From Candidatus Omnitrophota bacterium (GTDB lineage Bacteria > Omnitrophota > Gorgyraeia > Zapsychrales > Fredricksoniimonadaceae), in NCBI GenBank assembly GCA_015232565.1, contig JADFZK010000002.1, forward strand, positions 64,935 to 128,934: DNA of 64,000 nucleotides, in the 5' to 3' direction. The translations under genes and the position numbers were made by a program. Positions 9,131 to 60,165 of this stretch are shown here, piece by piece (positions within the stretch are counted from its first letter, which is position 1; each line of letters begins with the position of its first letter). The notes under the pieces were generated by a model, which was given only the letters and a program-made list of their open reading frames with translations, ran no database searches and was not told where the DNA came from.

Positions 9131-9424
9131 TTAAGCCATTGTCCCGCAATGTTTTGTGTTTCTTCTGGTTTGTCGTAAATCAATCGCAAATCATTCTGAA
9201 AACACCTTGAATTCCTACCCGCTGTATGGTTAGATAGTGCATCTCCATCTATAAATTCTTTTTAAATTCTTATCTACTCAGGGTTGACTTTTTTCATGCC
9301 CTTATTTGAATACACTAAAAGATTTAACTTTTTAATAGCCCAACGCACGACCACTGTGACGTGTAAGCTATTGAACGCCTGCCGGCATGCCTTTTGCACC
9401 CCGTTAATTAATGATTTATTCATG

Positions 9425-9530: not shown

Positions 9531-9721
9531 AGATAAGAATTCCATTACTTCACGCAATAGACCAGTTCCGCCCAGGCTTACATGTTGAAATTCCATCGCA
9601 TCGAATTATAGCCAAGGGCGAACCCGGCGCCCCGGTAGAGATTTCATCCCGTCGAACTTTAGCGAAGGTCGGGCCGAGCACCCTTGTGAACTCGCATTTG
9701 GCGTTGCGGGTGGTGGCGGGC

Positions 9722-15700: not shown

Positions 15701-18700
15701 TGGACAGTAGATTCTGACGCCACTGTGGAATTATCGGGCAATCTGTTTGTAACCGGCGATGTGACCATCAACGGACAGGTGAATACCAACGGGTTTAATA
15801 TGACTGTTGGCGGTAACTTAGATATCGCATCCGGCGCTACACTTGACGCCAGTCAGGATACCGGCTCCAGTAAGTCTGCTATTACGGTTACCGGATATTT
15901 TCATCCGACCGGCAATTTTGTTACTGACAGCACTACCCTTGCCATCGGTGCGGGCACTACCGCTATGAAATCCCCCTGGAGCCTGGGCAGTATCACGGTA
16001 GCCTCCGGTGCTGTTTTAACTACCGACGGATATAACTTTACCACTGCCACAGATGTTACGGTGCCCGGCACCCTGAACGCGGCCAGCGGAACAGGCGGCG
16101 CCAGTACGCTCACTGTGGGCGGAGGAGTTAATCTGGCCAATGGTGCCTTTACCGGTTCCGATTCAACTCTGATCCTGAATGCCAGTTCCGGTGCACAGTC
16201 ATTTGTAACCAATAATCAAACGTTCAATGTGATCCGGGTGACCGGCGCGGGTTCCTGGACTGTGACCGGGGGCTTAACCACCAGCAGTGATTTCACCATG
16301 ACGGCAGGCACCTTCAACGCCGCCAGCGCCGGCACCATGGACGTGAACGGGTCATTGGCGGTCACCGGGGCTTTCATTGCTCCGTCGGCGGTAATGTCGG
16401 TGGCCGGGTCGCTCACTATCGATGCCGCCACCACCTGGACCAGTTCTTCCGGCATCCTGAATTTTGATGCCAGCGGCTCCGGCAAGACCATTACCACCAA
16501 CGGCAAAAATCTTTACAATGCCTATTTCACCGGCTCCGGCGACTGGACTTTTAACGACAGCACCACGATCACCAACGATTTCACTCTTGCCGCCGGTACA
16601 CTAAAAGGCGGGACTTCCACTATTAGCGTTGGCCGGAACTGGGATTCCTCGGGAGCAACGGCTACATTTACATACAATCAGTCTACGGTTGACCTTACCG
16701 GAACCGGGCAAATGAAACTGCCTTATAATTCCTATTTTTATAACCTTAAGATCGCGGCACCCGGGCAGACAACCACCGTGCTCGATCCCACCAGCCTGAG
16801 AAACTTTTACATTTATGGCACTCTTACCCTGGGCTCCGGAACGCTGACTCATTCCACTGGCGTCTACGGATTATTATTTATACTTCGGGGAACCGTTACT
16901 CCGCTGGTTTATAACAATACAAATTTCGTTTACGGCAATATGTTGATCTACAACACTCAGGAAGACGGCTACACCTTTACCGTGCCGGCTATATCGACCG
17001 CGTCGAATCTGGCCGTTTCATTTACTCCCGCGGCAACTGTTACCTACAACCTTGGCGGCGCTTTGAATATCGGCGCCTTTGATGCTTATCAACAAACGGC
17101 TGGCAAGACATTGACCTACAATACAAATGGCTTTCCCATAACAACGTCAAACTTTGTCCGGGCTGTTGCCGGAAATGGTTCCATGGCTTATGCCCGAGGT
17201 GCCACGATTGCCAATTTCGCGAACAGCACAGTTACCGACGGGTGGGATGCCGGCACAACCTGGAGTAGTTACGCATATTCAGGAACGGTTAATCTTGAGT
17301 CTTCTGTCTGGGCTGTGTCCTGGGACTGGACCATGCAATCCTCCAATGGCACCATCACAGTCAATCCCGGCACATCCACAGTAAAGCTTTACAACACATG
17401 TAAATTGTGGTCGGGAGGAACTTCGTTTAACAATCTGCAGATCCTGGGCAATAGAACGCCCTACGATAACGTGTCGGTACTTGGTTCGTTGTACCTCAAG
17501 TCGTTTTCTTTTAACTGCTCCACCTATAACGCGGCCGTTACGGTGGCAGGCGCGGTTACGATCGATGCCGGATTCGCGTTCACCGCCGGAACCGCACCAT
17601 TTAATATTTCAGGCCCGACAGCCGCTTATACCAATGTTAATATCGCCGCTACCACCTGGACGGGCGGCACTTTGAACATACAGACCGATCTCGACCAGAC
17701 CCTGCCGTCGGGGGAGACTTATGGCAACCTGCAACTGGGCCGCTACTCAGGAAGTGGCGGGACGATATTCACTATGGGCTCGACCATTACTGGCAACTGG
17801 ACAGTGGATGCGGATGCCACGGTGGAACTATCGGGCAATTTAACTATCTCGGGGAATGCCACTATTAACGGCCGGGTGAATACCAACGGCTGGAACTTAA
17901 CTGTGGGCGGCAACTTTGATATTGCCTCCGGCGGCACACTTGACGCCAGCCAGGATACCGGCTCAACCAAATCGCGGATCGCGGTCACGGGTTACTTTCA
18001 TCCGCTGGGGAATTTCATCTCGGACAATACCACTCTTTTGATCGGCGCCGGCACTTCTACCATGAGATCCGCCTGGAGCCTGGGCAGTATCACCATTGCC
18101 GCCGGGTCCACTCTAGTTACTGACGGCTACAACTTCACCACCACCTCCGACGTAACCGTGCCCGGCACCCTCAACGCCGCCAACGGGGCCGGAGGCTCAA
18201 GCACTCTGGCCATCGGCGGCAGTGTGAACTTTACCGGCGGCACATTTACCAATACCCTTTCGACAGTTATTCTTAATTCGACCACCACGGCTCAAACCAT
18301 ACTTACGGCCGACAACCAGTACAATGTGCTAACCGTGTCCAATTCGGCGGCGGGCGGAGTGACCTTCTCGGATGCCTGGACGGTGGTGGACTTTACCGAT
18401 ATTACCGCCGGGTCAAAATTGTATTTCGAGAACGGCATAACTTATACAATATCCGGCACGCTCACATTAAACGGCACCTCGGGGAATCTTATAACACTCA
18501 ACACCCACGACGGCTTAACCACCAACTTCATACTTAAACCCGCGGGAGGTGTGCCCACGGTTAATTATTTAAGCGTACGGCGAGCGGATGCCCAAACTAA
18601 TGACATTACTTGTGTAAATTGCAACGACGCCGGCTACAACAACTCCGGCACCGGAAATAAACTCTGGGACTTCGACAACAGCGCAGAAAACGGCGGCTTA

Positions 18701-18724
18701 ATCTTCGGCGCCATGATGTTCTAA
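9722..18724 (+). CDS. Giant (about 3000 aa) secreted repeat protein; a predicted beta-helix, adhesin-like surface protein rich in FxxN motifs
   Basis: Single uninterrupted ORF. A signal-peptide-like start is present (LALRVVAGMILAAGVLLSCSTAQA|AS), reached by ATG at 9722 or TTG at 9698. The ORF-track start at 9284 is an artefact of read-through across the REPIN region. Composition is heavily biased to T/G/N/S/A. Dozens of TFNG/FNGx (FxxN) motifs are present, together with long internal near-duplications. No recognisable C-terminal sorting motif. Confidence 0.8.
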   Translation: MILAAGVLLSCSTAQAASRYWVGANGANTNDANNWAGADPASCAGGGAGIPGNSDIAYFDADCDSNASINANLNVAGINIASGYSGTITQTSTYTVTVGASHYTQVDGTFTGGSGAITNSGNFSVTGGAFTATSGTLSVAGDVNLSGGTYTHNNGIIDLTKAAGTQTFDSGNQTFYRINHNAAGTLQLINNSVTATNYIYQTAGTIDLNTLSMTSQGNGRVRYGGILNNGTFTVSGLTGNQVTIDNNAVIGANIYITAGSINFTDATFNGVAFLNCNGTTQGDSVSYGGSTFNSDTTLQTSGSVQFYTSQSKADTFNGPLTLNNTSNGTLTINWAGNNTKFNNNIYVNNTGSGTVSVGAYYGSSMTLADGYTISVGSSGVSSGTLSIKGLLQAGTTAQNIALTGTATMNISYGGTFNGDLTVTGGTGNTVNTYSTATRFNGNLNVTAGIINLNGGTFNGTSYFKQTGTTSDSGGSSGSCTFNSTTTIENNGSRGFSLGYSTTDTFNGPLTLTNTSSGYVNVVSGTSGTVFNNDIFFNNTGAGTTSIGNYNGTRTSTLADGHSLSIGTTGFSSGTLAIRGLTQVGSTGSTLDLTGTSSLVMNYANTFNGPLTISTPVFNLGRSTFNGPVTITKTGLAGSYTYTDGGDTFNSTFTFNQNGTGSGGGATSAYQYLGNNGLYETFNGDVTFNILNNSDIGLNQTGYKFNGNLIVNSSGSGNIYIYNSTLATGKTISVGTGYTGGELRLQGFNQVGATAQNLTMGGTSILTLGTGTTFNGDTTFSVYQTTATSVTFNGATTFEATKYWRIYGSTFNGPATMNNPSTNDWSGFQNTATTFNNDVTFTTTGNQSSYVAFGVNTIFNGNVTGANRVVWGNGGIPVFSKTSGVQTLDTANIAFSNLTHSGAGALQLTGNNLRMTNGTALINSAGTLDLNGRNITAVSTTFTLTNSGGNIQLINTETTNNFTQYTSNGTWTYVGNGTATTRTIKDFGATDYFNLSINATGATPDVFQITSPLNLVGALRVQTPFTPGTYLVTLSGATASYTSTNIDISKTTWTGGSLNIQSDLDQTLPSGETYGTLQLGRFSGTGGTIFNMGSTIEGNWTVDADATVNLTGDLVISGSATINGRVNTQGWNLTIAGTLDMNGTLDATRGATASTITLSGSADFTGGTFTRDNSVLLFNGTGTKTLKSASNTFNTLQVNNAGLTLSMQDSLLVGGDLTLTAGTLDVTASNYAISAAGTWTNAGGTFTPRNGTVTLNGASQRINGTNTFYNLQKNVTTAGTLTFESGASQTISNALTLTGQSGAILTLASSSGGSYWNVNPAGTHTLSYLSVSDSNNTGADINTAGLNIADGGHNVGWTFVANGTWTGGGADNNWSTPGNWSSGVPATSDVVVFDTTSTKSCIVDIPATVAGLNMATGFTGTITVSNGFTINGDATLNAGDFNAAGASTLDINGSLAIISSDFTAPTNAVMSISKSLTIDSTASWNFSGSGTLFFDASGTTKTITTNSKQLQNVRFDASYAGSTGTIWTLQDNFTAYSINVATTLANASLVDNGKTVTVNSPTAANITINTSAVNIAPSTGTWVMAANGTVSNTVQGFAIFEASAGVTVTISGTCVFKKGVLGANATVNGGQFYAYSPTANDYFDFAAGSNVSNILTLYGGANRTQKSINITGRFFDFSYANSSVIMSGDWTVGNMQLSPSAGTNSDTEAEARVFDTNSKNLTANGWVILGAAGSLSRQGQQKLLLRNGTHVITGALYVVQGAVPSAGLVILDDSAGSVALEVDGNWTMKDMKVTLGSASVISKGNMDYSSMYISSESTWGMNAGTSTITLSGAANQTITAANSVDNTGAAIAEFYNMVINKTGAAGTDKVIISSPANTLDLTVTNSARVIDGILDLATNSAVMTIGVALTIDTAGSMTVGAASTLTIAGTAATYKSSDIFSIANTTWASTATLNLQSDLDQTLPSDETYGNLQLGRYSDSGGTIYTMGSTIAGDWTVDSDATVELSGNLFVTGDVTINGQVNTNGFNMTVGGNLDIASGATLDASQDTGSSKSAITVTGYFHPTGNFVTDSTTLAIGAGTTAMKSPWSLGSITVASGAVLTTDGYNFTTATDVTVPGTLNAASGTGGASTLTVGGGVNLANGAFTGSDSTLILNASSGAQSFVTNNQTFNVIRVTGAGSWTVTGGLTTSSDFTMTAGTFNAASAGTMDVNGSLAVTGAFIAPSAVMSVAGSLTIDAATTWTSSSGILNFDASGSGKTITTNGKNLYNAYFTGSGDWTFNDSTTITNDFTLAAGTLKGGTSTISVGRNWDSSGATATFTYNQSTVDLTGTGQMKLPYNSYFYNLKIAAPGQTTTVLDPTSLRNFYIYGTLTLGSGTLTHSTGVYGLLFILRGTVTPLVYNNTNFVYGNMLIYNTQEDGYTFTVPAISTASNLAVSFTPAATVTYNLGGALNIGAFDAYQQTAGKTLTYNTNGFPITTSNFVRAVAGNGSMAYARGATIANFANSTVTDGWDAGTTWSSYAYSGTVNLESSVWAVSWDWTMQSSNGTITVNPGTSTVKLYNTCKLWSGGTSFNNLQILGNRTPYDNVSVLGSLYLKSFSFNCSTYNAAVTVAGAVTIDAGFAFTAGTAPFNISGPTAAYTNVNIAATTWTGGTLNIQTDLDQTLPSGETYGNLQLGRYSGSGGTIFTMGSTITGNWTVDADATVELSGNLTISGNATINGRVNTNGWNLTVGGNFDIASGGTLDASQDTGSTKSRIAVTGYFHPLGNFISDNTTLLIGAGTSTMRSAWSLGSITIAAGSTLVTDGYNFTTTSDVTVPGTLNAANGAGGSSTLAIGGSVNFTGGTFTNTLSTVILNSTTTAQTILTADNQYNVLTVSNSAAGGVTFSDAWTVVDFTDITAGSKLYFENGITYTISGTLTLNGTSGNLITLNTHDGLTTNFILKPAGGVPTVNYLSVRRADAQTNDITCVNCNDAGYNNSGTGNKLWDFDNSAENGGLIFGAMMF

Positions 18725-22558: not shown

Positions 22559-22682
22559 TCTTTCCGCCTCCCGCACTTGTTTTTTGCCAATTCATATTAC
22601 ATACTTATACAGGTATGAGGCGCCTGCATGGATCTTACGCTGATCTTTGCGGCTTTTTAAAGCTCGTTGGGGGACCAGGGGA

Positions 22683-25600
22683 ATGCGTAGAATTGTTTCA
22701 CTAATTACAGTGTGCTGTTTTATTTTGAGCGGCAATGGTTTGCCGGCGGCTCTGGCGCAAAGTGTGATCCTGCCGGAACCCGGGCGCATGATCGCGCTCA
22801 GTCAACCCTTGACAGCTGTTACCCTCAAAGGGGTAAAGGTTTATGCTAATGATCCCTTGCGTCTGGATTTCATTATAGATAATAGTAACCTTGATCGTTC
22901 GCCTGTGTCCGATACAGGTGACCAGACCCGGCGGTATAAGGAAAGTCAGGCCGTCGAATCCCGGAAACTTATCAAATATTTTCTCGCCGCTCTAACAACT
23001 CCCGAGAAGGACCTGTGGGTCAATTTAAGCCCTTATGAAAAAGAACGCATTGTGCCGGAGGCTTTTGGCTTTACCGAGATGGGCCGCGACCTGCTGGCCC
23101 AGGATTATTTGTTAAAGCAGGTTACCGCGTCCTTGATCTATCCGGAAGGCGCTACCGGCCAGAAGTTCTGGTCCGAGGTATATCGCCAATCGTCAGCGCG
23201 CTACGGCACTACCGATATCCCAATCGATACCTTCAACAAAGTCTGGATCGTCCCCGCCCAAGCCACAATCTACGAAAACACCACAGCCGGCACAGCATAC
23301 ATAACCAAAAGCCGCCTAAAAATAATGCTGGAAACCGACTATTTAGCAACGTCGAATAAACCAATGCCAAACCCCACAATCGACCCAACCGAAATCACCA
23401 AGAACATCCTGCGCGAAATCGTGATCCCCGTACTGGAGAAAGAAGTCAACGAAGGCGCCAACTTTGCCCCACTCAGGCAGGTATATAATTCCCTGATCCT
23501 GGCGGCCTGGTTCAAAAAGAAAGTATCCGGTAACGCCCTGGACCAAGCGTTTGTGGACCGTAACAAGATCGGCGGCATAAACATCAATAACCCAAAAGAA
23601 CCCGGGCAGATCTGGTCCACCTACGTAGAAGCGTTCCAGAAAGGCGTATATAATTTCATCAAGGAAGAGATCGACGAGCCCACCGGCGAAGCTTTGCCGC
23701 GCAAGTATTTCTCCGGCGGAGCAGTGTTCGATAATAGCCAGCTTGATCCAGTACTGTCCTTCACTAAGGACGCCGCCGCGATATCCGGCCTGAGAGCCAA
23801 AGGCTTAACTTTGGTCGCCGCTTTATTAGGACTGGCAGGGGGGATGTATTATTTAAAAGCACCCACGCGCAACTTGCACAACGAAGCTTCGCCGCCAGAA
23901 ATTACCGTGAGCACTACCAATACCCGCACCGCTATGCCTGATCTCCCGAAAGCGCCGGCTTATCAGGGCGTAAACGGTTTTATGAATCTGGTGCTGGCGT
24001 CGACCGACAAAACCAATCTGTTCAATAACCTCAACATTAATATTACGGGCAAAGACCTTGCCAATCCGCAGATCTCCCGGGAAATGCGCGACGCCTTCAA
24101 CGCCGGGCTTAACCTGGAAATGGAAGAAGAGAGTTTTTCCTTCTTTATGCAACATTATTCCTTTGTGCGTTTTGAAACTATCGTTATGCAGATCCGCCTG
24201 GGCGATGCTTTCCAGAAAGCTATTGAAACATTTGCCGAAGAATTCCCATACCTCGACGGACAAATAATGCCCGATCGGGAAGCTTTCGGTGCCTGGATGG
24301 ACACACTGCTGTTGACCCATGAGCTGGGGCCCGAGACCTACCAGAAAAAGCTCCGTATGGTCTCAGAACTATTTCCCGATGATGTTCTGGTCTCGGCCTG
24401 TATAACTTTGAGGCAGAAAGATCCCCATTATCCTTTCTGGCGCATGATGAATAATTTTGTCAGACTTATCCATAAGTACGGCCAGGATGTGGAAAAGGCA
24501 AAAAACTCCTTACTAAAACTACCGTCCGAATTTGGCAATTTTACACTTCAGGACATTGCTAATATCTTTGCCGGTATTATGGATTACCCGCAGGAATATG
24601 TGGATCAGTTTGTTTCGAATGTTATGATCCGAAATCATTATTGCCTGGAATTATCGGTTGATCAATTAAAAGCTATGTCGGAAAGTTCATTTATCAGCTT
24701 TCTTACCTTTAACAGTACTTTTCGTGTTTTGATGCTTAAAAAGCCATTGGCGGCGGCTGTTTTCTTGCTTAACGAAGATCCGGGCCGCAGATTTGTTTAT
24801 GCTGACCAGGAACGATTGGCACAATTTCAGCTAGCCGCCGGTTTACCGGATAAGGAACTATTTAATCTACTTAACTGGAACTGGATCAAGATTGCCAACA
24901 AAGTTTCTTATGAAACACGTCAAAGATTGATTGCCATGGACAATGTTTCCTGGAGGCTGGAATTCGCATTAAACAATGTTATTCCCGGGTTCAATCCTGC
25001 TGACCCGTTTACAACGGCTAGCCTTGAGGTGGCATTAAAGCGTTATGGTAATGATTATAAGCGCCGTTTTGAGACATATGCCATCAACGATATTATCAAA
25101 GAAATGAATAAAGAAACCCGCGCACAACAAGAAACCAAATTGCGCGGACTTATAAGACAATACCTGCAAATGTCTTTTCAGGCCTCGGTTATGTCCCGCG
25201 AGAATGGTAAGAACAAGGAACTACAGGTTTTGCGTCAAAGGATCAATGATCTTACGACCATCATTAACACCCTGCGACATACTATCGACTCAGGAATCAT
25301 GGAGATTCATGAGCTATCTCTCCCAAATATTCCTGACACTAACAGTCCATTCTCTATGGAAAATATCTTACATCGCAACTCCGCGACTACTCCCGTAGAA
25401 GTAATTCCAACTACCCCCGAAGAAGCAATCCCAAAGACTCCCGCCACACCAGCCTGGACCGATTCTCCGGTGGTAGAAGAGAGCACCCCTGCGCCGAATC
25501 GAGTACCGCGCGCGGCGCCGCATGGGATCGGGACCAGAGACCAATTGCCAGAAACTCCTCCGTCGGAACCGGAACAGGGGGATCCAGTTCCGGGCTTCGA

Positions 25601-26210
25601 CCAACCGTCCGAAATGAATAATGTACCCCAGCCCACCGCGGAGCCTGAGCTCAATAATGAACCACAGCCACTTGAAACGTACCCAGGGGGGCCGGGGAAC
25701 TTATTACCACTTAATGCTTCACTAAATCCGATAGCTAATATGGGGGCAATAACGAAGGATCCGCTTGATCCGGTGCTCGATCTGATCGCCAATGGCCAGA
25801 TGCTATCAACGACGGGCGGCAATTATACTTTGCTTACATTCAGCGGTAAACTGGGGATCCGTATCAATAACCAGAATTCCGCGATCGAAACAATCTTTGA
25901 ATTTGGCCCGGATCAAGCCCCGGTTGAATTGAACATTACTGGCGAGCCAATGAAACGTATAACGGACAAAGTTAGTACCCGGCTGGCGGCCGCCGCTAAC
26001 GGGGTGGATCAGGCGGGACTCACGCCCGGTGGTATCGATCTTGGCTCCAGCGCTCAAAAAGTTATGATTAACGGCAACGGGCAAGGGAACATCACCGTCG
26101 CAATAAATCCGGCCTTACTACAACGCCTCCAAAACGCCTCAGGCCTTTTCCCGGTAGTCCTGGACAGCCAACCACTGGAAAGTTTAACGCGTTTTCTGGG
26201 TATTCAGTAA
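22683..26210 (+). CDS. Large secreted protein (about 1175 aa) with an unrecognised conserved N-terminal domain of roughly 350 aa, a predicted TM/hydrophobic segment, a helical middle, a Pro/Glu-rich linker and a C-terminal domain
   Basis: Signal peptide MRRIVSLITVCCFILSGNGLPAALAQ from the ATG at 22683. The N-domain is clearly homologous to the N-terminus of the 43101-48290 protein (shared LWVNLSPYEKERIVP, DLLAQDYLLKQ, YGTTDIPID..NKVWIVP, FAPLRQVY..LILAAW.KK, PRKYFSGG). A hydrophobic stretch LTLVAALLGLAGGMYYL follows. A low-complexity PTTPEEAIPKTPATP linker is present near residue 900. Confidence 0.7.
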   Translation: MRRIVSLITVCCFILSGNGLPAALAQSVILPEPGRMIALSQPLTAVTLKGVKVYANDPLRLDFIIDNSNLDRSPVSDTGDQTRRYKESQAVESRKLIKYFLAALTTPEKDLWVNLSPYEKERIVPEAFGFTEMGRDLLAQDYLLKQVTASLIYPEGATGQKFWSEVYRQSSARYGTTDIPIDTFNKVWIVPAQATIYENTTAGTAYITKSRLKIMLETDYLATSNKPMPNPTIDPTEITKNILREIVIPVLEKEVNEGANFAPLRQVYNSLILAAWFKKKVSGNALDQAFVDRNKIGGININNPKEPGQIWSTYVEAFQKGVYNFIKEEIDEPTGEALPRKYFSGGAVFDNSQLDPVLSFTKDAAAISGLRAKGLTLVAALLGLAGGMYYLKAPTRNLHNEASPPEITVSTTNTRTAMPDLPKAPAYQGVNGFMNLVLASTDKTNLFNNLNINITGKDLANPQISREMRDAFNAGLNLEMEEESFSFFMQHYSFVRFETIVMQIRLGDAFQKAIETFAEEFPYLDGQIMPDREAFGAWMDTLLLTHELGPETYQKKLRMVSELFPDDVLVSACITLRQKDPHYPFWRMMNNFVRLIHKYGQDVEKAKNSLLKLPSEFGNFTLQDIANIFAGIMDYPQEYVDQFVSNVMIRNHYCLELSVDQLKAMSESSFISFLTFNSTFRVLMLKKPLAAAVFLLNEDPGRRFVYADQERLAQFQLAAGLPDKELFNLLNWNWIKIANKVSYETRQRLIAMDNVSWRLEFALNNVIPGFNPADPFTTASLEVALKRYGNDYKRRFETYAINDIIKEMNKETRAQQETKLRGLIRQYLQMSFQASVMSRENGKNKELQVLRQRINDLTTIINTLRHTIDSGIMEIHELSLPNIPDTNSPFSMENILHRNSATTPVEVIPTTPEEAIPKTPATPAWTDSPVVEESTPAPNRVPRAAPHGIGTRDQLPETPPSEPEQGDPVPGFDQPSEMNNVPQPTAEPELNNEPQPLETYPGGPGNLLPLNASLNPIANMGAITKDPLDPVLDLIANGQMLSTTGGNYTLLTFSGKLGIRINNQNSAIETIFEFGPDQAPVELNITGEPMKRITDKVSTRLAAAANGVDQAGLTPGGIDLGSSAQKVMINGNGQGNITVAINPALLQRLQNASGLFPVVLDSQPLESLTRFLGIQ

Positions 26211-43100: not shown

Positions 43101-46100
43101 ATGTTTAGCATATTAAGCCAATTAATATTTTGTCGCTGGATCGCGATATTCCTGACCGGGGTCTTACTTCTGCAATCCTCAGGGGTTGCTCTGGCGGCGG
43201 AAATCATTTCGTCAGGATCCCCACTGGCCGCATCCATATACACAATACGCCAGCCAGCACTGCCGCAATTAAAAGGCCTGATTCTTAACCGTCAGGATCC
43301 GCTCAAGCTGGCTTTTATTCTATCCGGAGAGGGCGCTAGTGAACCGGCCACTTTGGATCCGGTTGCCGGACGGCGTTTGGCCGGGTATTTTCTGGCCGCA
43401 CTGGCTATTTCCGATAAAGACATCTGGGTCAATCTTTCCGCATTCGAAAAAGACCGTACCGTGCCGCCAGCCTTGGGAACCACGCCACTGGGGCAGGACA
43501 TGCTGGCGCAGGATTACCTGCTTAAACAGCTCACTTGCGAACTCACCAATCCCGACACTGCCCAGGGACGTGTTTTCTGGAACAAGATCTACGCCGCACT
43601 TAACAAACGTTTTGGCACCACTGACCTCCCGGTGGACCTGGTGAACAAAGTCTGGATCTTGCCGGAGAAAGCAGTGGTATCACGCAGGGGAAATGCGGTT
43701 TATGTAGTAGAACAAAAACTTAAAGCCATGACTGAAACAGACTATTATGCTCTCCGCCGATCGGGGGCACTAGCCCCCAATGATACCCAAGATATCTCCA
43801 ATACGGTTTTACGCGAAGTGATCCTTCCGCTAATTGATCAGGAGATCAACAACGGCGTGCAATTTGCACCATTACGCCAAATCTACAAAGCCATGATCCT
43901 GGCGGCCTGGTATAAAAAAAACCTGCGCCGATCCATTCTGGGCTCTGCATACGCCGACCAAAGCGCGGTAAACGGGATCCGTGCAACAGATCCAACAGCC
44001 AAAGAACACATCTATACTGCCTACCTGGAATCATTTCGCCAGGGAGCCTACAACTTAATTCGCGAGGAGCAAGACGCCTCGTCCGGAGAAAATATCGCCC
44101 GAAAATATTTCTCCGGCGGCCTAAGCGGACTGGGGCCCCAGGATTTCAGCGAGATCAGCAGCAGGTCGTTAACTTCGTACCAACAAAAACAAACGGCCAG
44201 GCCTGGTGATATTATAATGGGAGTGCAACTGCGTACTCTTGATTTTGCAGGGGATACTCTTGCTGATGAAGTCAAACTTTCCGATTCACTAACTGAAGAC
44301 ACCAGGCTATGGCAGCAAATCTTTCAACCAATTGATGAGTCGGCAATCAGAGTAAATAGTTTCTTATCAGCAACAGGGGCCAATGATTCACCAAATCAGC
44401 GTTTGTTTGATATATTGCTATACGACGAACTGCGTCTGGTAAAGAAACGAATGGATTTTGGATATCTTAAGTCTGGCACTGCGCACTTATCTGTTGATTA
44501 TTTTGACGGAATGATCCGGGCGATTGACCGGATCTTGATAACATTAAGTACCCTGCCGGCAAATTCAGCCTCGTTACAAGTTGGAATACAATGGTCGATC
44601 CAGGCGGTACAACAGTCACTAAAACCATCTTATGCGAACAACCCGGATTTGCAAGCTGGCCGCGGATTACAGTTCGTCATTAATTCTCTGCGCGGCATTT
44701 CAACTCAACACTACCGATCATTTCTTAGAATGAAACGTTATCTTGCACTTCTAAGAGAAAATTACGCACTCCCTACAACCTCTTTAAATCCGTTAAAGAC
44801 CGCGAACATCGCTGAAGATGAAAGAATGTGGTCTATAGCGGATCAATTAAACAACCAATGGGTTGCAGTACAAAATATTGTTTCGCGCGGTATCGCTGAT
44901 ATCCAATATGCAGGAGGGACAAGTCATTTCATTGGTGAAGCCCTGGATGAGATATTCAGTGCCTTTCAGGTTGCTAAGAATCGGGACTATATGTATCCCA
45001 AACAAGCCACATATATTGAAACCAGGCTTGCTCTTTTACAAGAAACACTGGAAAAGTGGAGCGATCCCGGCGAAGAACTTGCCAACAGGCAATGGGCAAT
45101 TGGGATCCTACGAAATGCCCGTAGACTGACACCAGCTGAAAAAGAAGATGCAGTCAAAAGAATCTCGACGGCCAAATTCATTCTAAGAAATGGTCTGAAG
45201 GTTATGGGACCGAACATCAAAGAAGCATTGGAAATTCTGAATAAAAGCCATTTCTTTCAGAACGCCGAGGCAGTTATTGAATATTTCAGCCAGCGAGATA
45301 GATCAATCAGCACTCGAACCGATTGGGATATTAATTCATCGGTTTTCGCTAACTGGACTTCAGTGAATCCTATTACGGTTCCGCCTACTCTTGAGACTGA
45401 CCCAATTGACATCGTTGCTTTGCCTGGCTATCTTCGTATACCAATTGTACAAAAAGCGGATGTGCTTCTTCAATCGGGATGGAATGGTAATCTGACGGCT
45501 TCAGTTGAGCAGTATCTAAAAACTTATTCGAGTTCGACCCTGTCGCCAGAAGCATATATGGCAATCAACGGGTTTGCCAGAAATGCCTCCCAACACAGAC
45601 AGACTGTGACAGTAGGTGACAAGATTATCTCTGGTACAGATTTCAATTCTTACCCTCAACTTCTGGCCCAGTTGCTGGATTTCTCATTATGGCGCTTGGC
45701 GGGCATAGATCCGTTTAGTGATGTTGGTAGCCGCCTGGCGGCTGTTTACCCTGCTATTGGGGTTAACGGAACCCAAAGAATCGGTCAAAAGGATGTAAAC
45801 GATAAATCCAGGATTATTACCGAGTTTATCGAAAGTTTAAATGCAGACATTGAAATTCGTGAAGCTTTTCTTAAGATAATGGACGCTTTTCTGACATTAA
45901 TATTCAATGATCAAATGTTCCGTCAACAGATCGATCCACGGGCAGGCCGGGGGGATGAGCATGAATATGGGCTGGTCTGGCCAGGTCAATTCTGGAGTAA
46001 CAGTACTGTCGATCAACTTGATCAATTGCCGGGCTTCGACCTGATCCAATATAAAGCCAAGTTCAATGAAGCTACCGCAGTATTTGTTTCTCGTATTCGT

Positions 46101-48290
46101 GAGCTTTTACCGTACAGACTATATTTGGCTAAACAATCCGGGCATATAAATATAGAGCCAATAATTAGTCGGGTGTTCAACGATAGCACAGGCAAGATCA
46201 AGTGGCGCCAATGGCATGTAGATCGTATTTATGAAACACTTCTGGCAGTAAAAGCACAAGGCATGTCGGAGGAAGCTGATGCGCTCTGGGAAGCGTTTAA
46301 ATCTAAACTAAGCACTATCGATCCCGCCGAAATAATTGCCCGCTCTTTTGACTCTGCTGGTAATTCTTTGCAGATGACTGCCGCAGAAGACCAACTGGTA
46401 CGTGAATGGTTAGACAGGAATAATCTTAAATGGCCAGTACCCCCGGATGTTGCAAATCTTACCCAAAGCGAACGGCTCAAATTTCTTACCCGATATTTGC
46501 TGAACCTTTACAAAATCATACCCAAATTTGATGATCATAAATGGCCGGTACAAATTCAGTATCCGTTAATTACTGAAGATCAACTCAAATTCCCGGGGCT
46601 TGGTGATACTTTTTCCTGGAGCAAAGTGGACACCTGGCAGAATTGGTTTATGCATACCTGGCCGGCGAATTTAACACTTTTCAACGGAGGAATTGAATTT
46701 ATCATTCCCGAGATAGAAAAATTGGAGAATGGGACCACGAAAGATCCGAATGGAACTATTAGTCAAATAGCAGAATATTTCACGTATGTTACAGAATCCA
46801 TGTATGACGTTACTACAGTTATTAATATGCTATCTGACATGCAGGGGGCCATTATAAATAATACATTCCGCACTAAATGGCCCGAAGGTATTGGGATTGG
46901 TTCCCCGATCAAGAGCGAAGATAAGTCCAACTGGTTTATCTACCAGATATTCAATGCTCACTCCAATGCGATAACACATCGCGCTGTTTTAAAGAAGATC
47001 GTTCTGGAGTTAGACCGTATTCGCCCAGATTGGAATGTTGCACTAAATGAGTTCAACCAATGGATCGCTAAAATAATGTTTCCTCATCCGGAATGGCAGC
47101 AAAATCTAAGAAAAGCTCAGATAGAGTTTGAGAATAATCAACAACTCCAAAAGGCCCGTTCCAGACAATCCCTCAGGACCGAAGCGTTAAGCGCGATATC
47201 AGAGCTGGTCGATCAAAGAAAGCAGGAAGCAAAAGAAAGATTGCATGCTCAGAATTTAATTGAATGGGCCCGGGCGCAGGCGCGTGGGGAGGCTTCTTTA
47301 ATGTTGCCACCGGTTTGGAGTGCTGATAACACCAGACTTGGAGAATTAAACAACCGAAACCGGGTTATTACACTAACGCCGGAAGTAGCCTATGTTATAG
47401 AAGAGATGACAAATCGTGATTATCCAATCGTTTTTAGAATTTTTAAAGATGCGGTACGCCATAAGGCCGGAATAGCAGGCAATAGCAAAGAATGGAAAGC
47501 TTTTGAACATATTTTCTATTCCAATCCTGACGCGGATGAACTTGCCGAGATGATAAAACGCTTCGACCTGCTTTTGGCGCTTACGCCAGCTGAGCAGATG
47601 AAATTCCTCGCTATGTACGAACGATATAACAGGGCCGGTTATTTCATTTTATATGAAGCTCAACTTTACGATTTTTATATTGATCGAAATGACCTTTTTA
47701 TTCAGGCCATCTTTGGCAAAGGCCATGGTTGGGAATTTATACCAGTTGCGAATAAACTAGGCCGCCTCAGAAAACTATTTCTTGATACCGACGCCCGGTC
47801 ATCTTTTGAATTAAGCTTTACAAATCATATGGCAACGATGCACGCCCATATTCGCGCCAATAATCTCACTCCGGCTATCAAGATTTGCATCTGGGTCGTA
47901 GAAAGATTCAAGAGATCTAAACTTTCTACTCCGTTACCACGAATATTAGCTCTGCTGGATAAAATCGCCTCAAATGAGCCAGCGCTCACCGCTCGTTGCA
48001 ATAATGTTAAATCGGCGCTTATCGATCAAGTAACAGGTTCAAATCCTAAGACGATGGACGGTCAATCACGAAAAAGGTTACCCACAGATTCAGCCGAAGG
48101 GCTTAAAGGCGGGATCGATTTCGCCGCTATGGGGTATACAATTAATGAGAACACGGAGAATCTGGATCTAGCCTGGCCGTCAGTTTGGCCATATGGCGGC
48201 AAGCCTCTTAATGACCTTACCCCTATAATTATCGGATATGCGCGCGCGTCAACATTACCCGGATTGATCCGGCCAGCTATTGCAAATTAG
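43101..48290 (+). CDS. Very large secreted protein (1729 aa) sharing the unrecognised N-terminal domain with the 22683-26210 protein, followed by about 1350 aa of mostly helical sequence of unknown function
   Basis: Signal-peptide-like N-terminus MFSILSQLIFCRWIAIFLTGVLLLQSSGVALAA. The N-domain motifs IWVNLSAFEKDRTVP, DMLAQDYLLKQ, FGTTDLPVD..NKVWILP, FAPLRQIYKAMILAAWYKK and ARKYFSGG align with the paralog. It is transcribed divergently from pntA part 1, with a 225-nt AT-rich intergenic region between them. Confidence 0.7.
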   Translation: MFSILSQLIFCRWIAIFLTGVLLLQSSGVALAAEIISSGSPLAASIYTIRQPALPQLKGLILNRQDPLKLAFILSGEGASEPATLDPVAGRRLAGYFLAALAISDKDIWVNLSAFEKDRTVPPALGTTPLGQDMLAQDYLLKQLTCELTNPDTAQGRVFWNKIYAALNKRFGTTDLPVDLVNKVWILPEKAVVSRRGNAVYVVEQKLKAMTETDYYALRRSGALAPNDTQDISNTVLREVILPLIDQEINNGVQFAPLRQIYKAMILAAWYKKNLRRSILGSAYADQSAVNGIRATDPTAKEHIYTAYLESFRQGAYNLIREEQDASSGENIARKYFSGGLSGLGPQDFSEISSRSLTSYQQKQTARPGDIIMGVQLRTLDFAGDTLADEVKLSDSLTEDTRLWQQIFQPIDESAIRVNSFLSATGANDSPNQRLFDILLYDELRLVKKRMDFGYLKSGTAHLSVDYFDGMIRAIDRILITLSTLPANSASLQVGIQWSIQAVQQSLKPSYANNPDLQAGRGLQFVINSLRGISTQHYRSFLRMKRYLALLRENYALPTTSLNPLKTANIAEDERMWSIADQLNNQWVAVQNIVSRGIADIQYAGGTSHFIGEALDEIFSAFQVAKNRDYMYPKQATYIETRLALLQETLEKWSDPGEELANRQWAIGILRNARRLTPAEKEDAVKRISTAKFILRNGLKVMGPNIKEALEILNKSHFFQNAEAVIEYFSQRDRSISTRTDWDINSSVFANWTSVNPITVPPTLETDPIDIVALPGYLRIPIVQKADVLLQSGWNGNLTASVEQYLKTYSSSTLSPEAYMAINGFARNASQHRQTVTVGDKIISGTDFNSYPQLLAQLLDFSLWRLAGIDPFSDVGSRLAAVYPAIGVNGTQRIGQKDVNDKSRIITEFIESLNADIEIREAFLKIMDAFLTLIFNDQMFRQQIDPRAGRGDEHEYGLVWPGQFWSNSTVDQLDQLPGFDLIQYKAKFNEATAVFVSRIRELLPYRLYLAKQSGHINIEPIISRVFNDSTGKIKWRQWHVDRIYETLLAVKAQGMSEEADALWEAFKSKLSTIDPAEIIARSFDSAGNSLQMTAAEDQLVREWLDRNNLKWPVPPDVANLTQSERLKFLTRYLLNLYKIIPKFDDHKWPVQIQYPLITEDQLKFPGLGDTFSWSKVDTWQNWFMHTWPANLTLFNGGIEFIIPEIEKLENGTTKDPNGTISQIAEYFTYVTESMYDVTTVINMLSDMQGAIINNTFRTKWPEGIGIGSPIKSEDKSNWFIYQIFNAHSNAITHRAVLKKIVLELDRIRPDWNVALNEFNQWIAKIMFPHPEWQQNLRKAQIEFENNQQLQKARSRQSLRTEALSAISELVDQRKQEAKERLHAQNLIEWARAQARGEASLMLPPVWSADNTRLGELNNRNRVITLTPEVAYVIEEMTNRDYPIVFRIFKDAVRHKAGIAGNSKEWKAFEHIFYSNPDADELAEMIKRFDLLLALTPAEQMKFLAMYERYNRAGYFILYEAQLYDFYIDRNDLFIQAIFGKGHGWEFIPVANKLGRLRKLFLDTDARSSFELSFTNHMATMHAHIRANNLTPAIKICIWVVERFKRSKLSTPLPRILALLDKIASNEPALTARCNNVKSALIDQVTGSNPKTMDGQSRKRLPTDSAEGLKGGIDFAAMGYTINENTENLDLAWPSVWPYGGKPLNDLTPIIIGYARASTLPGLIRPAIAN

Positions 48291-48385: not shown

Positions 48386-48661
48386 AAAACACTTGCGAAT
48401 AAAGTATACCGTCCCAACCCGAAGGCGTGGAATTTGGCCGATGCCAAGAACAGGTTCAGTGAAGTAGTGGGACTGGCGCTGCAGCAAGGGCCGCAAACGG
48501 TCTCCAGACGGAACGAAAGAGTGGTCATCATTTCGGAACGGGCCTTTCAAAAACTGACCGGGGTTGAACATACTTTTCTTGACTTCATTTTCAAAGGTCC
48601 GGGCCTGGACGGAGTCGACCTTACCCGCGACAAAGCGCTATCCAGAAAGATCTCGTTATGA
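48386..48661 (+). CDS. Type II antitoxin of the Phd/YefM family
   Basis: MKTLANKVYRPNPKAWNLADAKNRFSEVV...RRNERVVIIS is Phd/YefM-like. RBS AAGGA. Overlaps the downstream PIN toxin gene by 4 nt. The ORF-track start at 48350 is an upstream extension. Confidence 0.6.
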   Translation, partial: KTLANKVYRPNPKAWNLADAKNRFSEVVGLALQQGPQTVSRRNERVVIISERAFQKLTGVEHTFLDFIFKGPGLDGVDLTRDKALSRKISL

Positions 48662-49089
48662 AAGCTCTCCTTGATACCTGCATTATCTCACATATATATC
48701 GTGCGCACAGATCCGAACGCCTTAAGCACTTTCTGCACTCTATTGGCGAAGAGAACTGTTTTATTAGCGTGGTGACTCTGGGTGAGATAATTAACGGTAT
48801 TCATCAACTGGATGAAGGCAAGAAAAAGAAAGACCTGTTAGTTTGGGGCGAACAATTTGAATCAAAATACAGCGATCATCTTTTGCCAATTAATTCCGGT
48901 GTTGCCCGGGTATGGGGCGAATTAACCGCCAGGACAAAAAGAATCGGAAAAAACATACCGGTGGCCGATGGCTTGATCGCAGCAACAGCTCTTTATAATG
49001 GCCTGCATGTAATTACCGAGAATGTTAAAGATTTCGAACCCACTGGCGTCCAAGTCATAAATCCATATATCAATGTTACCAATCAATGA
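48658..49089 (+). CDS. vapC: PIN-domain toxin VapC
   Basis: 143 aa. MKALLDTCIISHIY with conserved D6, E(LGEII), and D(VADGLIAATA) and D(KDFE) of PIN. Confidence 0.8.
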   Translation: MKALLDTCIISHIYRAHRSERLKHFLHSIGEENCFISVVTLGEIINGIHQLDEGKKKKDLLVWGEQFESKYSDHLLPINSGVARVWGELTARTKRIGKNIPVADGLIAATALYNGLHVITENVKDFEPTGVQVINPYINVTNQ

Positions 49090-58768: not shown

Positions 58769-59182
58769 ATGTTCAAATATAAAACCCGGATCTTTTTACA
58801 TCACACTGACGCAGCCGGCCGCCTATTCTTTGCCAACCAGTTTTATCTTATCCATGAAGCCAATGAGCTGTTCCTGGAACACCTGGGCCTGCCGATCAAA
58901 GATATCCTAAACCATCCCCGGGCCACTTTTCCATTGGTTCACGCCGAGTCCGACTACAAAGCCGTACTGGTGGCTGGTGAACGAATATCCATCAAAGTCA
59001 GCATTGGTAAAATAGGGGAGACCTCGGTAACTTTTGATTTCATAATTCTAAAGGAGGACGGCACTCTGGCCGGCACCGCCAAAACAGTTCATGTAGCGGT
59101 AGACCTCCGCACTGCCTTAAAAACCCCCATACCCGCTGAATGGAAAAGCAAATTTGCATCAGCCATTATAACTAACGCCTGA
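58769..59182 (+). CDS. Hotdog-fold (4HBT/YbgC-like) acyl-CoA thioesterase, a candidate DHNA-CoA thioesterase
   Basis: 137 aa. IFLHHTDAAGRLFFANQFYLIHEANELF is 4HBT-like with a catalytic Asp. It sits last in the menBACE cluster. Confidence 0.6.
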   Translation: MFKYKTRIFLHHTDAAGRLFFANQFYLIHEANELFLEHLGLPIKDILNHPRATFPLVHAESDYKAVLVAGERISIKVSIGKIGETSVTFDFIILKEDGTLAGTAKTVHVAVDLRTALKTPIPAEWKSKFASAIITNA

Positions 59183-59193
59183 TGCAATGTTAC

Positions 59194-59438
59194 GGTGCAA
59201 AGGTAAAGCCTCCAGGGAAAGCTTATGATCCTTTCCGCCGCGTTCATAGAATTTAGAACGTCGCTCCGGATAAACCAACCGTCATTTTAACATTCAACGG
59301 GGATTGAGTCGGATGGCAATAGTTGTAGAAGATCCTACGCGTTAGCCATATCCTCCGCGCCATTCTAAATTCATGAACGCTCATGTAAACACAGTGGCGG
59401 GGCTCATATGCTTTCCCTGGAGGCTTTACCTTTGCACC
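59194..59438. mobile_element. MITE-like nonautonomous element of 245 bp with perfect 29-bp terminal inverted repeats and nested internal inverted repeats
   Basis: GGTGCAAAGGTAAAGCCTCCAGGGAAAGC at 59194-59222 is the exact reverse complement of 59410-59438. An inner imperfect inverted repeat joins CGCGTTCATAGAATTTAGAA (59239-59258) and TTCTAAATTCATGAACGC (59364-59380). Flanks TGCAATGTTAC and TGCATGTTC resemble an imperfect target-site duplication. It contains no ORF. Confidence 0.55.
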
Positions 59439-59547
59439 TCTGCATGTTCTTTGGTCTTTGATCTATCCCACAAAAGGGTTTGACTAAATATTTGTTAAAT
59501 CGGGTTTTATATGCCATACTTTACTCAGAAGGGACAGAAAGAACAGT

Positions 59548-60165
59548 ATGGACAGCCGCCACGGATTCGCTCTTATGAAACAGGAAAAACCTTTATCTGC
59601 CCGTCAGGCGGCCAGTTATTGCCAGGTCAATCTTAAAACCGCCCTGAAATGGATAGACGAAGGCAAACTGAAAGCTTACCAACTTCCGGACAGCGGCGTT
59701 AATCGCATTCTGTTGCCCGATCTTCTTGATTTCATGAAACGTTTCGGCCTGCCCATTCCTGCGGAGATAAATCTTTCCGGAGCAACCCGGCTTCTGGTAG
59801 TAGACGACGAATTACCGGCGATCAACACGCTGAAACGCATATTCCGTTCCCATGATCTGGTGCTGGAAGAAGCCCATGACGGCTTTGAGGCGGGACGTAA
59901 AGTGGAAACCTTCAAGCCCGACATTATCCTGCTGGACCTGCAAATGCCGGGGATGAGCGGCCGGGATGTATTAATGAAGATCAAACAAAATCCGGCGACC
60001 CGGCATATTAAAGTGATCATATTATCCGGCTATGTTGACATGGAAGCCAAGAACCGTCTGCTCAAAGATGGCGCCTGCGGTGTATTAGAGAAACCGATCG
60101 ACCGGAAGATATTATTCTCCCTGATCGGATTAACGACTACCTGCCGGAAGGACGACAATACATGA
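59548..60165 (+). CDS. Response regulator with an N-terminal excisionase/MerR-like HTH and a C-terminal REC domain; paralog of the 4799-5389 gene
   Basis: LSARQAASYCQVNLKTALKWIDEGKLKAYQLPDSGVNRI (HTH), then LLVVDDE...DIILLDLQMPGMSGRDV. About 45% identical to the 4799 protein across both domains. Overlaps the downstream kinase gene by 4 nt. Confidence 0.75.
   Translation: MDSRHGFALMKQEKPLSARQAASYCQVNLKTALKWIDEGKLKAYQLPDSGVNRILLPDLLDFMKRFGLPIPAEINLSGATRLLVVDDELPAINTLKRIFRSHDLVLEEAHDGFEAGRKVETFKPDIILLDLQMPGMSGRDVLMKIKQNPATRHIKVIILSGYVDMEAKNRLLKDGACGVLEKPIDRKILFSLIGLTTTCRKDDNT

What the first reader, a model, noticed from the sequence alone, without database searches (positions are those of the whole stretch)
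59194..59438. 245-bp MITE-like element with perfect 29-bp terminal inverted repeats between the men cluster and the signalling operon
Seen in sequence:
- GGTGCAAAGGTAAAGCCTCCAGGGAAAGC at the left end is perfectly reverse-complemented at the right end.
- An inner inverted repeat pairs CGCGTTCATAGAATTTAGAA with TTCTAAATTCATGAACGC.
- The flanking sequences (..TGCAATGTTAC | element | TCTGCATGTTC..) look like a degraded 9-bp target-site duplication.

No coding capacity. Either it is a nonautonomous transposon derivative (a MITE), or its transcript forms a roughly 240-nt extended hairpin ncRNA. It sits just upstream of the HTH-REC regulator gene and could provide or disrupt its promoter.
Basis: partly seen in the sequence, partly recalled or inferred. 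Interest (0 to 1): 0.5.

Follow-up and report, generated by a model that had tools for sequence, protein, structure and literature searches.

The report
Orphan MITE-like hairpin element, single copy
A real 245-bp non-coding DNA segment with perfect 29-bp inverted ends sits between two operons of an uncultured Omnitrophota bacterium; it looks like a small dead-end transposon relic, but no second copy, parent transposon or relative could be found anywhere, so it is an ordinary curiosity, not a discovery.

Summary
Window 59194-59438 is a 245-bp segment with perfect 29-bp terminal inverted repeats, which chance does not produce. Imperfect pairing continues inward, so either strand folds into a ~90-bp hairpin (z about -12).

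It has no credible coding capacity and matches no Rfam family. It fills the junction between the conserved menaquinone cluster (last gene: DHNA-CoA thioesterase) and an HTH_17-REC response-regulator/histidine-kinase operon. The source is an NCBI Omnitrophota MAG.

The MITE reading is the best fit to the anatomy but is unproven.
- No second copy occurs in the 64-kb window.
- No transposase or recombinase gene occurs in the window.
- There is no exact target-site duplication, only a gapped, offset flank similarity (p about 0.01-0.03).
- Exact-match scans of GTDB genomes, JGI metagenomes and IMG/VR gave no real hit. BLASTN against plasmids, phages and E. coli, and two protein-space searches with the element's reading frames, also gave none.
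- The nearest relatives (62-72% amino-acid identity) lack it on both the men side and the regulator side.

The regulator's conserved promoter and 5' leader block lies intact downstream of the element, so the element neither supplies nor disrupts that promoter.

Rivals not excluded: an invertible promoter switch, a cis-acting RNA hairpin, a paired protein-binding site. Interest is low.

The parts
59194..59438 (.). Whole 245-bp foldback element
   Evidence: Reverse-complement self-alignment is 65% over the full length. GC is 48%, against 50% for the window.
59194..59222 (+). Left terminal inverted repeat, 29 bp, perfect
   Evidence: exact match, 0 matches in shuffles.
59410..59438 (-). Right terminal inverted repeat, 29 bp, perfect reverse complement of the left one
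59223..59244 (.). Left subterminal extension of the inverted repeat. It pairs with 59388-59409. The whole arm is 51 nt at 84%, and 36 of the first 38 positions match.
59388..59409 (.). Right subterminal extension of the inverted repeat. It carries an 11-nt insertion relative to the left arm.
59239..59272 (.). Inner inverted-repeat block, left arm (CGCGTTCATAGAATTTAGAA...)
   Evidence: (I2: 24 nt, 79%).
59349..59380 (.). Inner inverted-repeat block, right arm (...TTCTAAATTCATGAACGC)
59273..59348 (.). Central non-palindromic core, about 76 nt
59362..59389 (-). Sigma-70-like promoter match inside the right arm (TTTACA-16-TAGAAT, 10 of 12), pointing left towards the thioesterase gene. It is a consensus match only.
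   Evidence: 2 sites found in the region, 0.9 expected. The mirror site in the left arm is weaker (read).
59184..59193 (+). Left flank GCAATGTTAC, one half of the gapped flank similarity (possible decayed target-site duplication)
   Evidence: p about 0.01-0.03; no exact abutting repeat.
59442..59449 (+). Right flank GCATGTTC, the other half of the flank similarity, offset 3 nt from the element end
59154..59187 (+). 15-bp hairpin (87% complementary, 4-nt loop) spanning the thioesterase stop codon, 6 bp left of the element
   Evidence: I4. One search lists a terminator-like site here on the - strand only.
58769..59182 (+). Left neighbour: 4HBT-type acyl-CoA thioesterase (DHNA-CoA hydrolase-like), the last gene of the conserved men cluster
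   Evidence: MBF0386451.1; synteny.
59492..59549 (+). Candidate promoter of the regulator operon: TTGTTA (59492-59497), 17-nt spacer, TG (59512-59513), one base, CATACT (59515-59520). A 5' leader block follows. The stretch 59504-59549 is conserved in orthologous loci L004-L008.
   Evidence: for conservation. The promoter assignment is my inference. The scanner did not call it; it matches 8 of 12 consensus positions, one below the scanner's threshold of 9.
59575..60165 (+). Right neighbour: HTH_17 + REC response regulator. The start is taken from the 196-aa NCBI protein.
   Evidence: MBF0386452.1.

Best explanation
The segment is most likely an orphan, non-autonomous foldback element of MITE type that carries no gene.

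Proposed mechanism (inferred): its two 29-bp ends, perhaps together with the inner repeat block, would be the binding and cleavage sites for a transposase supplied in trans. It lies in what would otherwise be a ~147-bp spacer, exactly at the joint between the conserved menaquinone cluster and a two-component signalling operon. It arrived there either by insertion or as the scar of a recombination between two copies that joined these two modules. The second route would also explain why no clean target-site duplication is present.

Likely present state (inferred): it is probably inert as a mobile element. Its effect is probably passive. If men-operon transcription runs past the thioesterase stop codon, the RNA would fold into a ~90-bp duplex. 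Such a duplex could block 3' exonucleases or be cut by RNase III. That would separate the men transcript from the downstream operon, which keeps its own promoter.

Shown: the anatomy, the absence of coding capacity, the location at the synteny joint, the intact downstream promoter block, and the absence of the element from the relatives examined.

Inferred: mobility, the transposase in trans, and any effect on RNA.
For: - Perfect 29-bp terminal inverted repeats, far beyond chance.
- Pairing decays from the tips inward: 20/20, then 16/20, then an indel, then a second ~90% block. This matches ends under selection more than one recent inverted duplication.
- Size of 245 bp, intergenic position, and no credible ORF. 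No protein anywhere resembles any of its reading frames. The only listed hits were repeat-inflated tandem-repeat proteins, and the six-frame chimeric query found nothing.
- It folds equally well on both strands with almost no G-U pairs (2 and 5). That points to a DNA-level palindrome and not to an RNA selected on one strand.
- It sits exactly at a synteny joint. Relatives L009, L012 and L014 conserve the gene order from the flavodoxin gene through xseAB, menB, menA, menC and menE up to the thioesterase gene. Variable cargo follows, then ilvN and ilvB.
- Regulator orthologues L004, L005 and L008 have other upstream genes and intergenic regions of only about 100-160 bp.
- Homology to the relatives stops at 59182 on the left and resumes near 59478 on the right. 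The element fills 245 of those 295 bp.
- The flanks show a gapped direct similarity seen at only 1-3% of random positions.
- It matches no Rfam family.
Against: - Only one copy exists in the 64-kb window.
- Pfam scans of 35 predicted proteins, covering nearly all ORFs of 120 aa or more that are not nested in a longer one, found no transposase, integrase or invertase.
- There is no exact target-site duplication of any length. A decayed duplication next to still-perfect 29-bp ends is internally awkward.
- The terminal 20-mer is absent from 185,579 GTDB species genomes.
- In JGI metagenomes it occurs only as chance hits inside an integrase-like coding sequence.
- The two-ended pattern returned 27 loci. 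All but one have inverted repeats of at most 17 nt. Most come from Bacteroidota and look like divergent promoters. The exception is one unrelated palindrome.
- IMG/VR, PLSDB, the phage collection and E. coli genomes gave nothing real.
- The element lies inside a 135-kb contig. My inference is that a high-copy, near-identical repeat would tend to break a short-read assembly there.
- The rest of the source MAG could not be searched.
Confidence: 0.45

Rival explanations
1. Invertible promoter switch (inverton). A site-specific recombinase encoded elsewhere would flip the 187-bp interior between the two identical 29-bp repeats. That would re-orient an internal promoter so that it reads either antisense into the end of the men operon or towards the regulator/kinase operon.
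For: Two perfectly identical inverted repeats flank a ~190-bp segment directly upstream of an operon, and recombination would keep them identical. The interior holds one good sigma-70-like match on the - strand (TTTACA-16-TAGAAT, 10 of 12). Its mirror position in the other arm is weaker (read), so the two orientations would differ. Single-copy status and the absence of a target-site duplication are expected for an inverton.
Against: Pfam scans of 35 predicted proteins across the 64-kb window found no tyrosine or serine recombinase. The palindromy continues well inside the 29-bp repeats, which an inverton does not need. The regulator operon already has its own conserved promoter block downstream of the element. 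One promoter-like match is close to the chance expectation (2 found, 0.9 expected). Neither orientation data nor relatives are available.
Confidence: 0.12
2. Locally evolved cis-acting RNA hairpin. It would be transcribed as the 3' end of the men operon, or as a stand-alone ncRNA. The long stem would act as a 3' stabiliser, an RNase III processing site or a transcriptional insulator between the two same-strand operons.
For: The fold is extremely stable on the + strand (-119.5 kcal/mol, z -12.2). It begins 11 bp after the stop codon of the last men gene and ends upstream of the next operon's promoter block. It is single-copy.
Against: It matches no Rfam family. The - strand folds as well or better, and G-U pairs are few on both strands. 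No U-tract follows the stem on either strand (read), and the scanner called no terminator for the whole hairpin. So it is not a classical intrinsic terminator. The relatives have no comparable hairpin after the thioesterase gene or before the regulator gene. A perfect 29-bp duplex is unusual for a selected ncRNA (general knowledge). Covariation cannot be tested without homologues.
Confidence: 0.15
3. Paired protein-binding sites. The two 29-bp repeats, 216 bp apart, would be operators for a DNA-binding protein, for example the adjacent regulator with its excisionase-type HTH_17 domain. Binding would loop the DNA upstream of the operon's promoter.
For: Identical inverted sites lie just upstream of a regulator gene whose DNA-binding domain is of the excisionase/MerR-like type.
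Against: Orthologous regulator genes at 62-69% identity keep the promoter block but have none of these repeats. A paralogous HTH_17-REC gene at 4799-5389 has no such site, because the repeat occurs nowhere else in the window. The model does not explain the inner palindromy.
Confidence: 0.05

Closest known systems
Bacterial MITEs with whole-element hairpin structure (for example Correia elements of Neisseria, ERIC/IRU of enterobacteria, RUP of Streptococcus pneumoniae, Nezha of cyanobacteria). The comparison rests on my own knowledge of these families.
   Same: Size of 100-400 bp, non-coding, terminal inverted repeats of about 20-30 bp, intergenic position, stable fold on either strand, and a position next to operon ends where such elements can be co-transcribed.
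   Different: Those families are defined by tens to hundreds of dispersed copies, characteristic target-site duplications (for example TA) and, for several, a known parent insertion sequence. Here there is one copy, no exact duplication and no parent. BLASTN against E. coli genomes, plasmids and phages showed no sequence similarity.
Invertons: invertible promoter segments such as E. coli fimS or the Bacteroides capsule-locus promoters (from my own knowledge)
   Same: Identical inverted repeats bracket a segment of 150-350 bp directly upstream of an operon. They are single-copy and have no target-site duplication.
   Different: No recombinase gene in the window, an interior that is itself palindromic, a separate conserved promoter downstream, and no evidence for a second orientation.
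REP/BIME-type extragenic palindromes that act as mRNA 3' stabilisers (from my own knowledge)
   Same: Extragenic position at the end of an operon, and a hairpin that could protect the upstream mRNA.
   Different: REP units are about 35-40 bp and highly repeated. This element is 245 bp and unique.

Membership tests
MITE (non-autonomous TIR transposon) | Short (under ~500 bp) and without coding capacity | tested here: met
   245 bp. Only ORFs of 21-52 aa overlap it. Flanking NCBI protein accessions are consecutive. No real protein homologue exists for any reading frame.
MITE (non-autonomous TIR transposon) | Terminal inverted repeats | tested here: met
   29 bp perfect, 36 of 38 matching, 51 nt at 84%.
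MITE (non-autonomous TIR transposon) | Target-site duplication abutting both ends | tested here: not met
   No exact direct repeat of 1-11 nt abuts both ends, so the feature as defined is absent. The only trace is a gapped, 3-nt-offset similarity (GCAATGTTAC / GCATGTTC) with p about 0.01-0.03, which leaves a decayed duplication possible.
MITE (non-autonomous TIR transposon) | Several dispersed copies in the genome or in related genomes | tested here: not met
   One copy in the 64-kb window. No real match in GTDB genomes, JGI metagenomes, IMG/VR, PLSDB, phages or E. coli. The rest of the source MAG could not be searched, so this holds only within reach of the tools.
MITE (non-autonomous TIR transposon) | An autonomous insertion sequence with matching inverted repeats that supplies the transposase | tested here: not met
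   No transposase domain in the 35 window proteins scanned against Pfam. The terminal 20-mer was not found at the end of any insertion sequence in the collections. ISfinder is not available here.
MITE (non-autonomous TIR transposon) | Presence/absence polymorphism (empty site) in close relatives | not testable with these tools
   The closest relatives are at 62-72% amino-acid identity and have a different gene order at the junction. The source proteins form single-member clusters.
Inverton (invertible promoter) | Inverted repeats bracketing a short segment next to a gene | tested here: met
Inverton (invertible promoter) | Orientation-dependent promoter inside the segment | tested here: inconclusive
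   One match at 10 of 12 on the - strand, with 2 sites found against 0.9 expected.
Inverton (invertible promoter) | A cognate site-specific recombinase | tested here: not met
   None among the 35 window proteins scanned against Pfam. One could be encoded elsewhere in the genome.
Inverton (invertible promoter) | Both orientations present in the population | not testable with these tools
   No reads are available, and there is no second assembly of this population.
Described structured RNA family (Rfam 15) | Match to a covariance model | tested here: not met
   No hit at E of 1 or below in 58900-59800. No hit at gathering score anywhere in the window.
Structured ncRNA in general | Covariation that supports the helices | not testable with these tools
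   No homologue was found in any collection.
Intrinsic terminator | G+C-rich stem followed directly by a U-tract | tested here: not met
   The tail after the stem is UCUGCAUGUUCUUUGG on the + strand and GUAACAUUGCAUCA on the - strand. The scanner called only a 6-bp sub-hairpin inside the right repeat.

The most novel reading that the evidence does not exclude
The element is not a transposon relic. Instead it is a lineage-specific functional device at the joint of the two operons. One form would be a phase-variable invertible switch, which has not, to my knowledge, been described in Omnitrophota. It would toggle antisense transcription into the menaquinone operon against extra transcription into the two-component operon. 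The other form would be a new single-copy long-hairpin RNA.
Probability: 0.12. Interest if true: 0.5.

Novelty: new member of a known kind. Interest (0 to 1): 0.18.

Why it matters
It matters little as it stands. If the MITE reading is right, the element adds one more small foldback element, in a poorly studied phylum (Omnitrophota). It also marks a rearrangement hot spot after the menaquinone cluster. It would become interesting only if reads from the source metagenome showed inversion (phase variation in an uncultured ultra-small bacterium), or if a discrete structured RNA were transcribed from it. One practical point for annotation: the element does not touch the regulator operon's conserved promoter block.

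Tried and rejected
1. Terminal 20-mer in GTDB genomes: no match.
2. The same 20-mer in JGI metagenomes: 3 hits, all one integrase-like coding sequence. The match stops at base 20, with no second end, so these are chance hits.
3. Two-ended pattern GGTGCAAAGGT-N(208-238)-ACCTTTGCACC in GTDB: 27 hits (my rough estimate for random sequence is about 2).
   - In 26 of them the inverted repeat is at most 17 nt.
   - Nearly all are Bacteroidota intergenic regions. TAccTTTGCA matches the Bacteroidota -7 promoter box TAnnTTTG (my own knowledge), so I read them as divergent promoters and not as homologues.
   - The exception, L022, is an unrelated 255-bp palindrome.
4. Two patterns in IMG/VR: none, or chance hits in coding sequence.
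5. BLASTN (word size 11) against plasmids, phages and E. coli genomes: only short chance matches in coding sequence, or nothing.
6. Searching for other copies as mis-called small proteins.
   - The 61-codon open frame against 1.84 billion representative proteins gave three tandem-repeat proteins whose scores are inflated by repeats.
   - A chimeric query of nine stop-free frame segments against 5.8 billion clusters gave nothing at E of 10 or below.
7. Fetching the source contig by exact protein look-up: not on record.
8. Empty-site test: impossible, because the nearest relatives are too distant and not syntenic across the junction.
9. Similarity between the left arm (CAGGGAAAGCTTATGATCCTTTC) and the glnB terminator upstream of the L008 regulator gene: a short, gappy match, judged coincidental.
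10. Assembly or amplification artefact: rejected. Only 29 bp are perfect, the arms differ by indels, and the element is internal to a 135-kb contig.
11. One simple recent inverted duplication: rejected. Arm identity is strongly uneven, with perfect tips, an 11-nt indel and a second conserved block.
12. One literature search (Omnitroph* plus 'miniature inverted') found no paper.

Full report
**Observation**

The sequence at 59194-59438 is as described. The 29-mer GGTGCAAAGGTAAAGCCTCCAGGGAAAGC occurs once on each strand, at the two ends. It occurs nowhere else in the window, even with three mismatches allowed, and never in shuffles.

Pairing continues beyond the 29 bp. The arms are 51 nt at 84%. 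After an 11-nt indel comes a second block around CGCGTTCATAGAATTTAGAA / TTCTAAATTCATGAACGC. About 76 nt in the centre are not palindromic.

Either strand folds into a hairpin of about 90 base pairs:
- RNA, + strand: -119.5 kcal/mol
- RNA, - strand: -124.9 kcal/mol
- DNA: -70.1 kcal/mol

All three have z-scores near -12.

Only ORFs of 21-52 aa overlap the element. The NCBI accessions of the flanking proteins are consecutive, so I infer that the depositor's annotation has no gene there.

The claimed 9-bp target-site duplication is not an abutting repeat at any length. What exists is GCAATGTTAC on the left against GCATGTTC on the right, starting 3 nt after the element. That similarity is reached at 1-3% of random positions in the window. 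It is suggestive, not convincing.

**Source and context**

The two flanking proteins are identical to MBF0386451.1 (acyl-CoA thioesterase) and MBF0386452.1 (response regulator). Both come from an NCBI MAG labelled Candidatus Omnitrophica/Omnitrophota, on a 135,475-bp contig. Each forms a single-member cluster.

Upstream lie MenA (UbiA family), MenC, MenE and the 4HBT thioesterase. Downstream lie an HTH_17+REC regulator, a Cache/PAS histidine kinase and a hybrid kinase that runs off the window.

Pfam scans of 35 predicted proteins, covering nearly all ORFs of 120 aa or more that are not nested in a longer one, found no transposase, integrase or invertase. The window has no tRNA gene and no Rfam family.

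**Comparison with relatives**

The closest thioesterase homologues are at 69-72% identity.
- Their contigs (L009, L012, L014) keep the gene order from the flavodoxin gene through xseAB, menB, menA, menC and menE up to the thioesterase gene.
- After that they diverge. The next item is nothing, a 1167-aa gene, or a superoxide dismutase gene.
- Convergent ilvN and ilvB follow in all three.
- The window has no ilvN.

The closest regulator homologues are at 62-69% identity.
- They head similar signalling operons but behind unrelated genes.
- Their upstream intergenic regions are about 100-160 bp.

So the element sits exactly at a synteny joint. Homology to the relatives ends at the thioesterase stop codon (59182) and resumes near 59478. 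The element fills 245 of those 295 bp.

None of the relatives' loci contains anything resembling the element. None has any long short-range inverted repeat.

**The regulator's promoter**

The block 59504-59549 (TTTATATGCCATACTTTACTCAGAAGGGACAGAA...) is conserved upstream of the orthologous regulator genes in L004-L008.

I read it as an extended -10 element with this layout:
- TG at 59512-59513
- one base
- CATACT at 59515-59520
- TTGTTA as the -35 at 59492-59497, with a 17-nt spacer

A 5' leader follows. This reading is my inference. The simple scanner did not call the site; it matches 8 of 12 consensus positions, one below the scanner's threshold of 9.

Either way, the conserved block is intact and starts more than 50 bp to the right of the element. 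The element therefore neither supplies nor interrupts it.

**Search for other copies or a parent element**

Every accessible route was negative.
- The terminal 20-mer has no match in 185,579 GTDB species genomes.
- In JGI metagenomes it has three matches. All lie inside one integrase-like gene family, and none extends past base 20.
- A two-ended pattern (11 nt at each end, 208-238 nt between) returned 27 genome loci. In 26 of them the inverted repeat is at most 17 nt. Most are Bacteroidota intergenic regions in which TAccTTTGCA matches the phylum's -7 promoter box, so I read them as divergent promoters. The remaining one (L022) is an unrelated palindrome.
- IMG/VR, PLSDB, phage genomes and E. 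coli genomes gave nothing meaningful.
- Other copies might have been mis-called as small proteins, so I searched protein space. The 61-codon open frame found only repeat-inflated artefacts among 1.84 billion representatives. A chimeric query of nine stop-free frame segments found nothing at E of 10 or below among 5.8 billion clusters.
- Rfam has no match.

The one thing I could not search is the rest of the source MAG and its reads.

**Interpretation**

The anatomy is that of a MITE-type foldback element: perfect ends, decaying subterminal pairing, a second inner repeat block, no gene, and an intergenic position.

The equal foldability of both strands, with almost no G-U pairs, points to a DNA-level palindrome and not to an RNA selected on one strand. 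Absence from both sets of relatives argues against a conserved regulatory RNA tied to either operon.

Its position exactly at a synteny joint fits either of two histories. One is insertion into a short spacer. The other is a scar of recombination between two copies, which would also explain the missing clean target-site duplication.

The family-defining evidence was sought and not found: multiple copies, a parent insertion sequence, an exact target-site duplication, an empty site. Perfect 29-bp ends next to a decayed duplication are awkward for a simple recent insertion. Continuity of a 135-kb contig also suggests low copy number.

I therefore hold 'orphan MITE-like element' at about 0.45. The rivals and my confidences are:
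- inverton, about 0.12. It explains the perfect repeats and the single copy. Against it: no recombinase in the window, a palindromic interior, and a redundant promoter.
- locally evolved cis-acting RNA hairpin, about 0.15. There is no U-tract, no strand asymmetry and no conservation.
- paired operator sites, about 0.05.

The remainder is unassigned.

**Likely consequence for the cell (inferred)**

If the men transcript reads through, a long duplex would form at its 3' end. That could stabilise the transcript or be cut by RNase III. Either way it would insulate the men operon from the signalling operon, which starts from its own promoter.

**Novelty and verdict**

The feature is real and statistically unambiguous, but it is a common kind of object. 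It is best filed as a new, so far single-copy, member of the bacterial foldback/MITE-like class, in an Omnitrophota MAG, with mobility unproven. Interest is low unless read-level data reveal inversion or a discrete RNA.

Noticed in passing
window 9423-9531: A second long palindrome: 48-nt arms, 88% complementary, 13-nt loop. Each arm itself contains a GGGCGGAC-TTTAT-GTCCGCCC hairpin. It lies at the 5' edge of the 3146-aa giant ORF and is unrelated in sequence to the element under study.
   Followed up: partly
window 9091-9130: A 20-bp unit, TTCAATGTGTCCCGGTTTAC, repeated twice in tandem in the repeat-rich region upstream of the giant ORF.
   Followed up: no
window 9284-18724, 43101-48290 and 22647-26210: Very large ORFs of 3146, 1729 and 1187 aa. 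The 1187-aa one has no Pfam match. The other two were not scanned.
   Followed up: no
window 59504-59549; L004 about 5990-6035; L008 about 5990-6030: A promoter and 5' leader block (TG-n-CATACT followed by TTTACTCAGAAGGGACAGAA) is conserved upstream of orthologous HTH_17-REC regulator genes that sit in otherwise unrelated contexts. It may be a shared regulatory leader.
   Followed up: partly
window 4799-5389: A paralogous HTH_17 + REC response regulator (196 aa) in the same window. It has the same unusual domain order, with the DNA-binding domain N-terminal to the receiver.
   Followed up: no
window 59183 onward, compared with L009 10409, L012 10409 and L014 10400: The slot after the DHNA-CoA thioesterase gene varies between lineages. 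It holds nothing, a 1167-aa gene, a superoxide dismutase gene, or (here) a two-component operon. In the three relatives convergent ilvN-ilvB follows. This looks like a rearrangement or insertion hot spot.
   Followed up: partly
L017-L043 (GTDB genomes, mostly Bacteroidota): GGTGCAAAGGT...ACCTTTGCACC pairs about 230-260 bp apart recur in Prevotella, Paludibacteraceae and Flavobacterium intergenic regions. TAccTTTGCA matches the Bacteroidota -7 promoter box. This compositional trap inflates hits for patterns of this kind.
   Followed up: yes
L022 868-1122 (Bacteroidia bacterium PG1894_40, BNYG01000001.1): A 255-bp near-perfect palindrome (59 of the first 60 positions pair). It may be a foldback element in its own right. 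It shares only the 11-nt tip imposed by the search pattern.
   Followed up: partly
L001 5274-5293, L002 2931-2950, L003 5148-5167, L046 1306-1323: The terminal 20-mer of the element occurs by chance inside an integrase-like gene (it encodes ...DGGFTFAPLKNN... and an HDLRHTF motif) found in several metagenome and viral contigs.
   Followed up: yes
window 8334-8720 and 48658-49089: Two PIN-domain (VapC-like) genes. The sequence at 8760-8995 after the first may encode a small partner protein.
   Followed up: no
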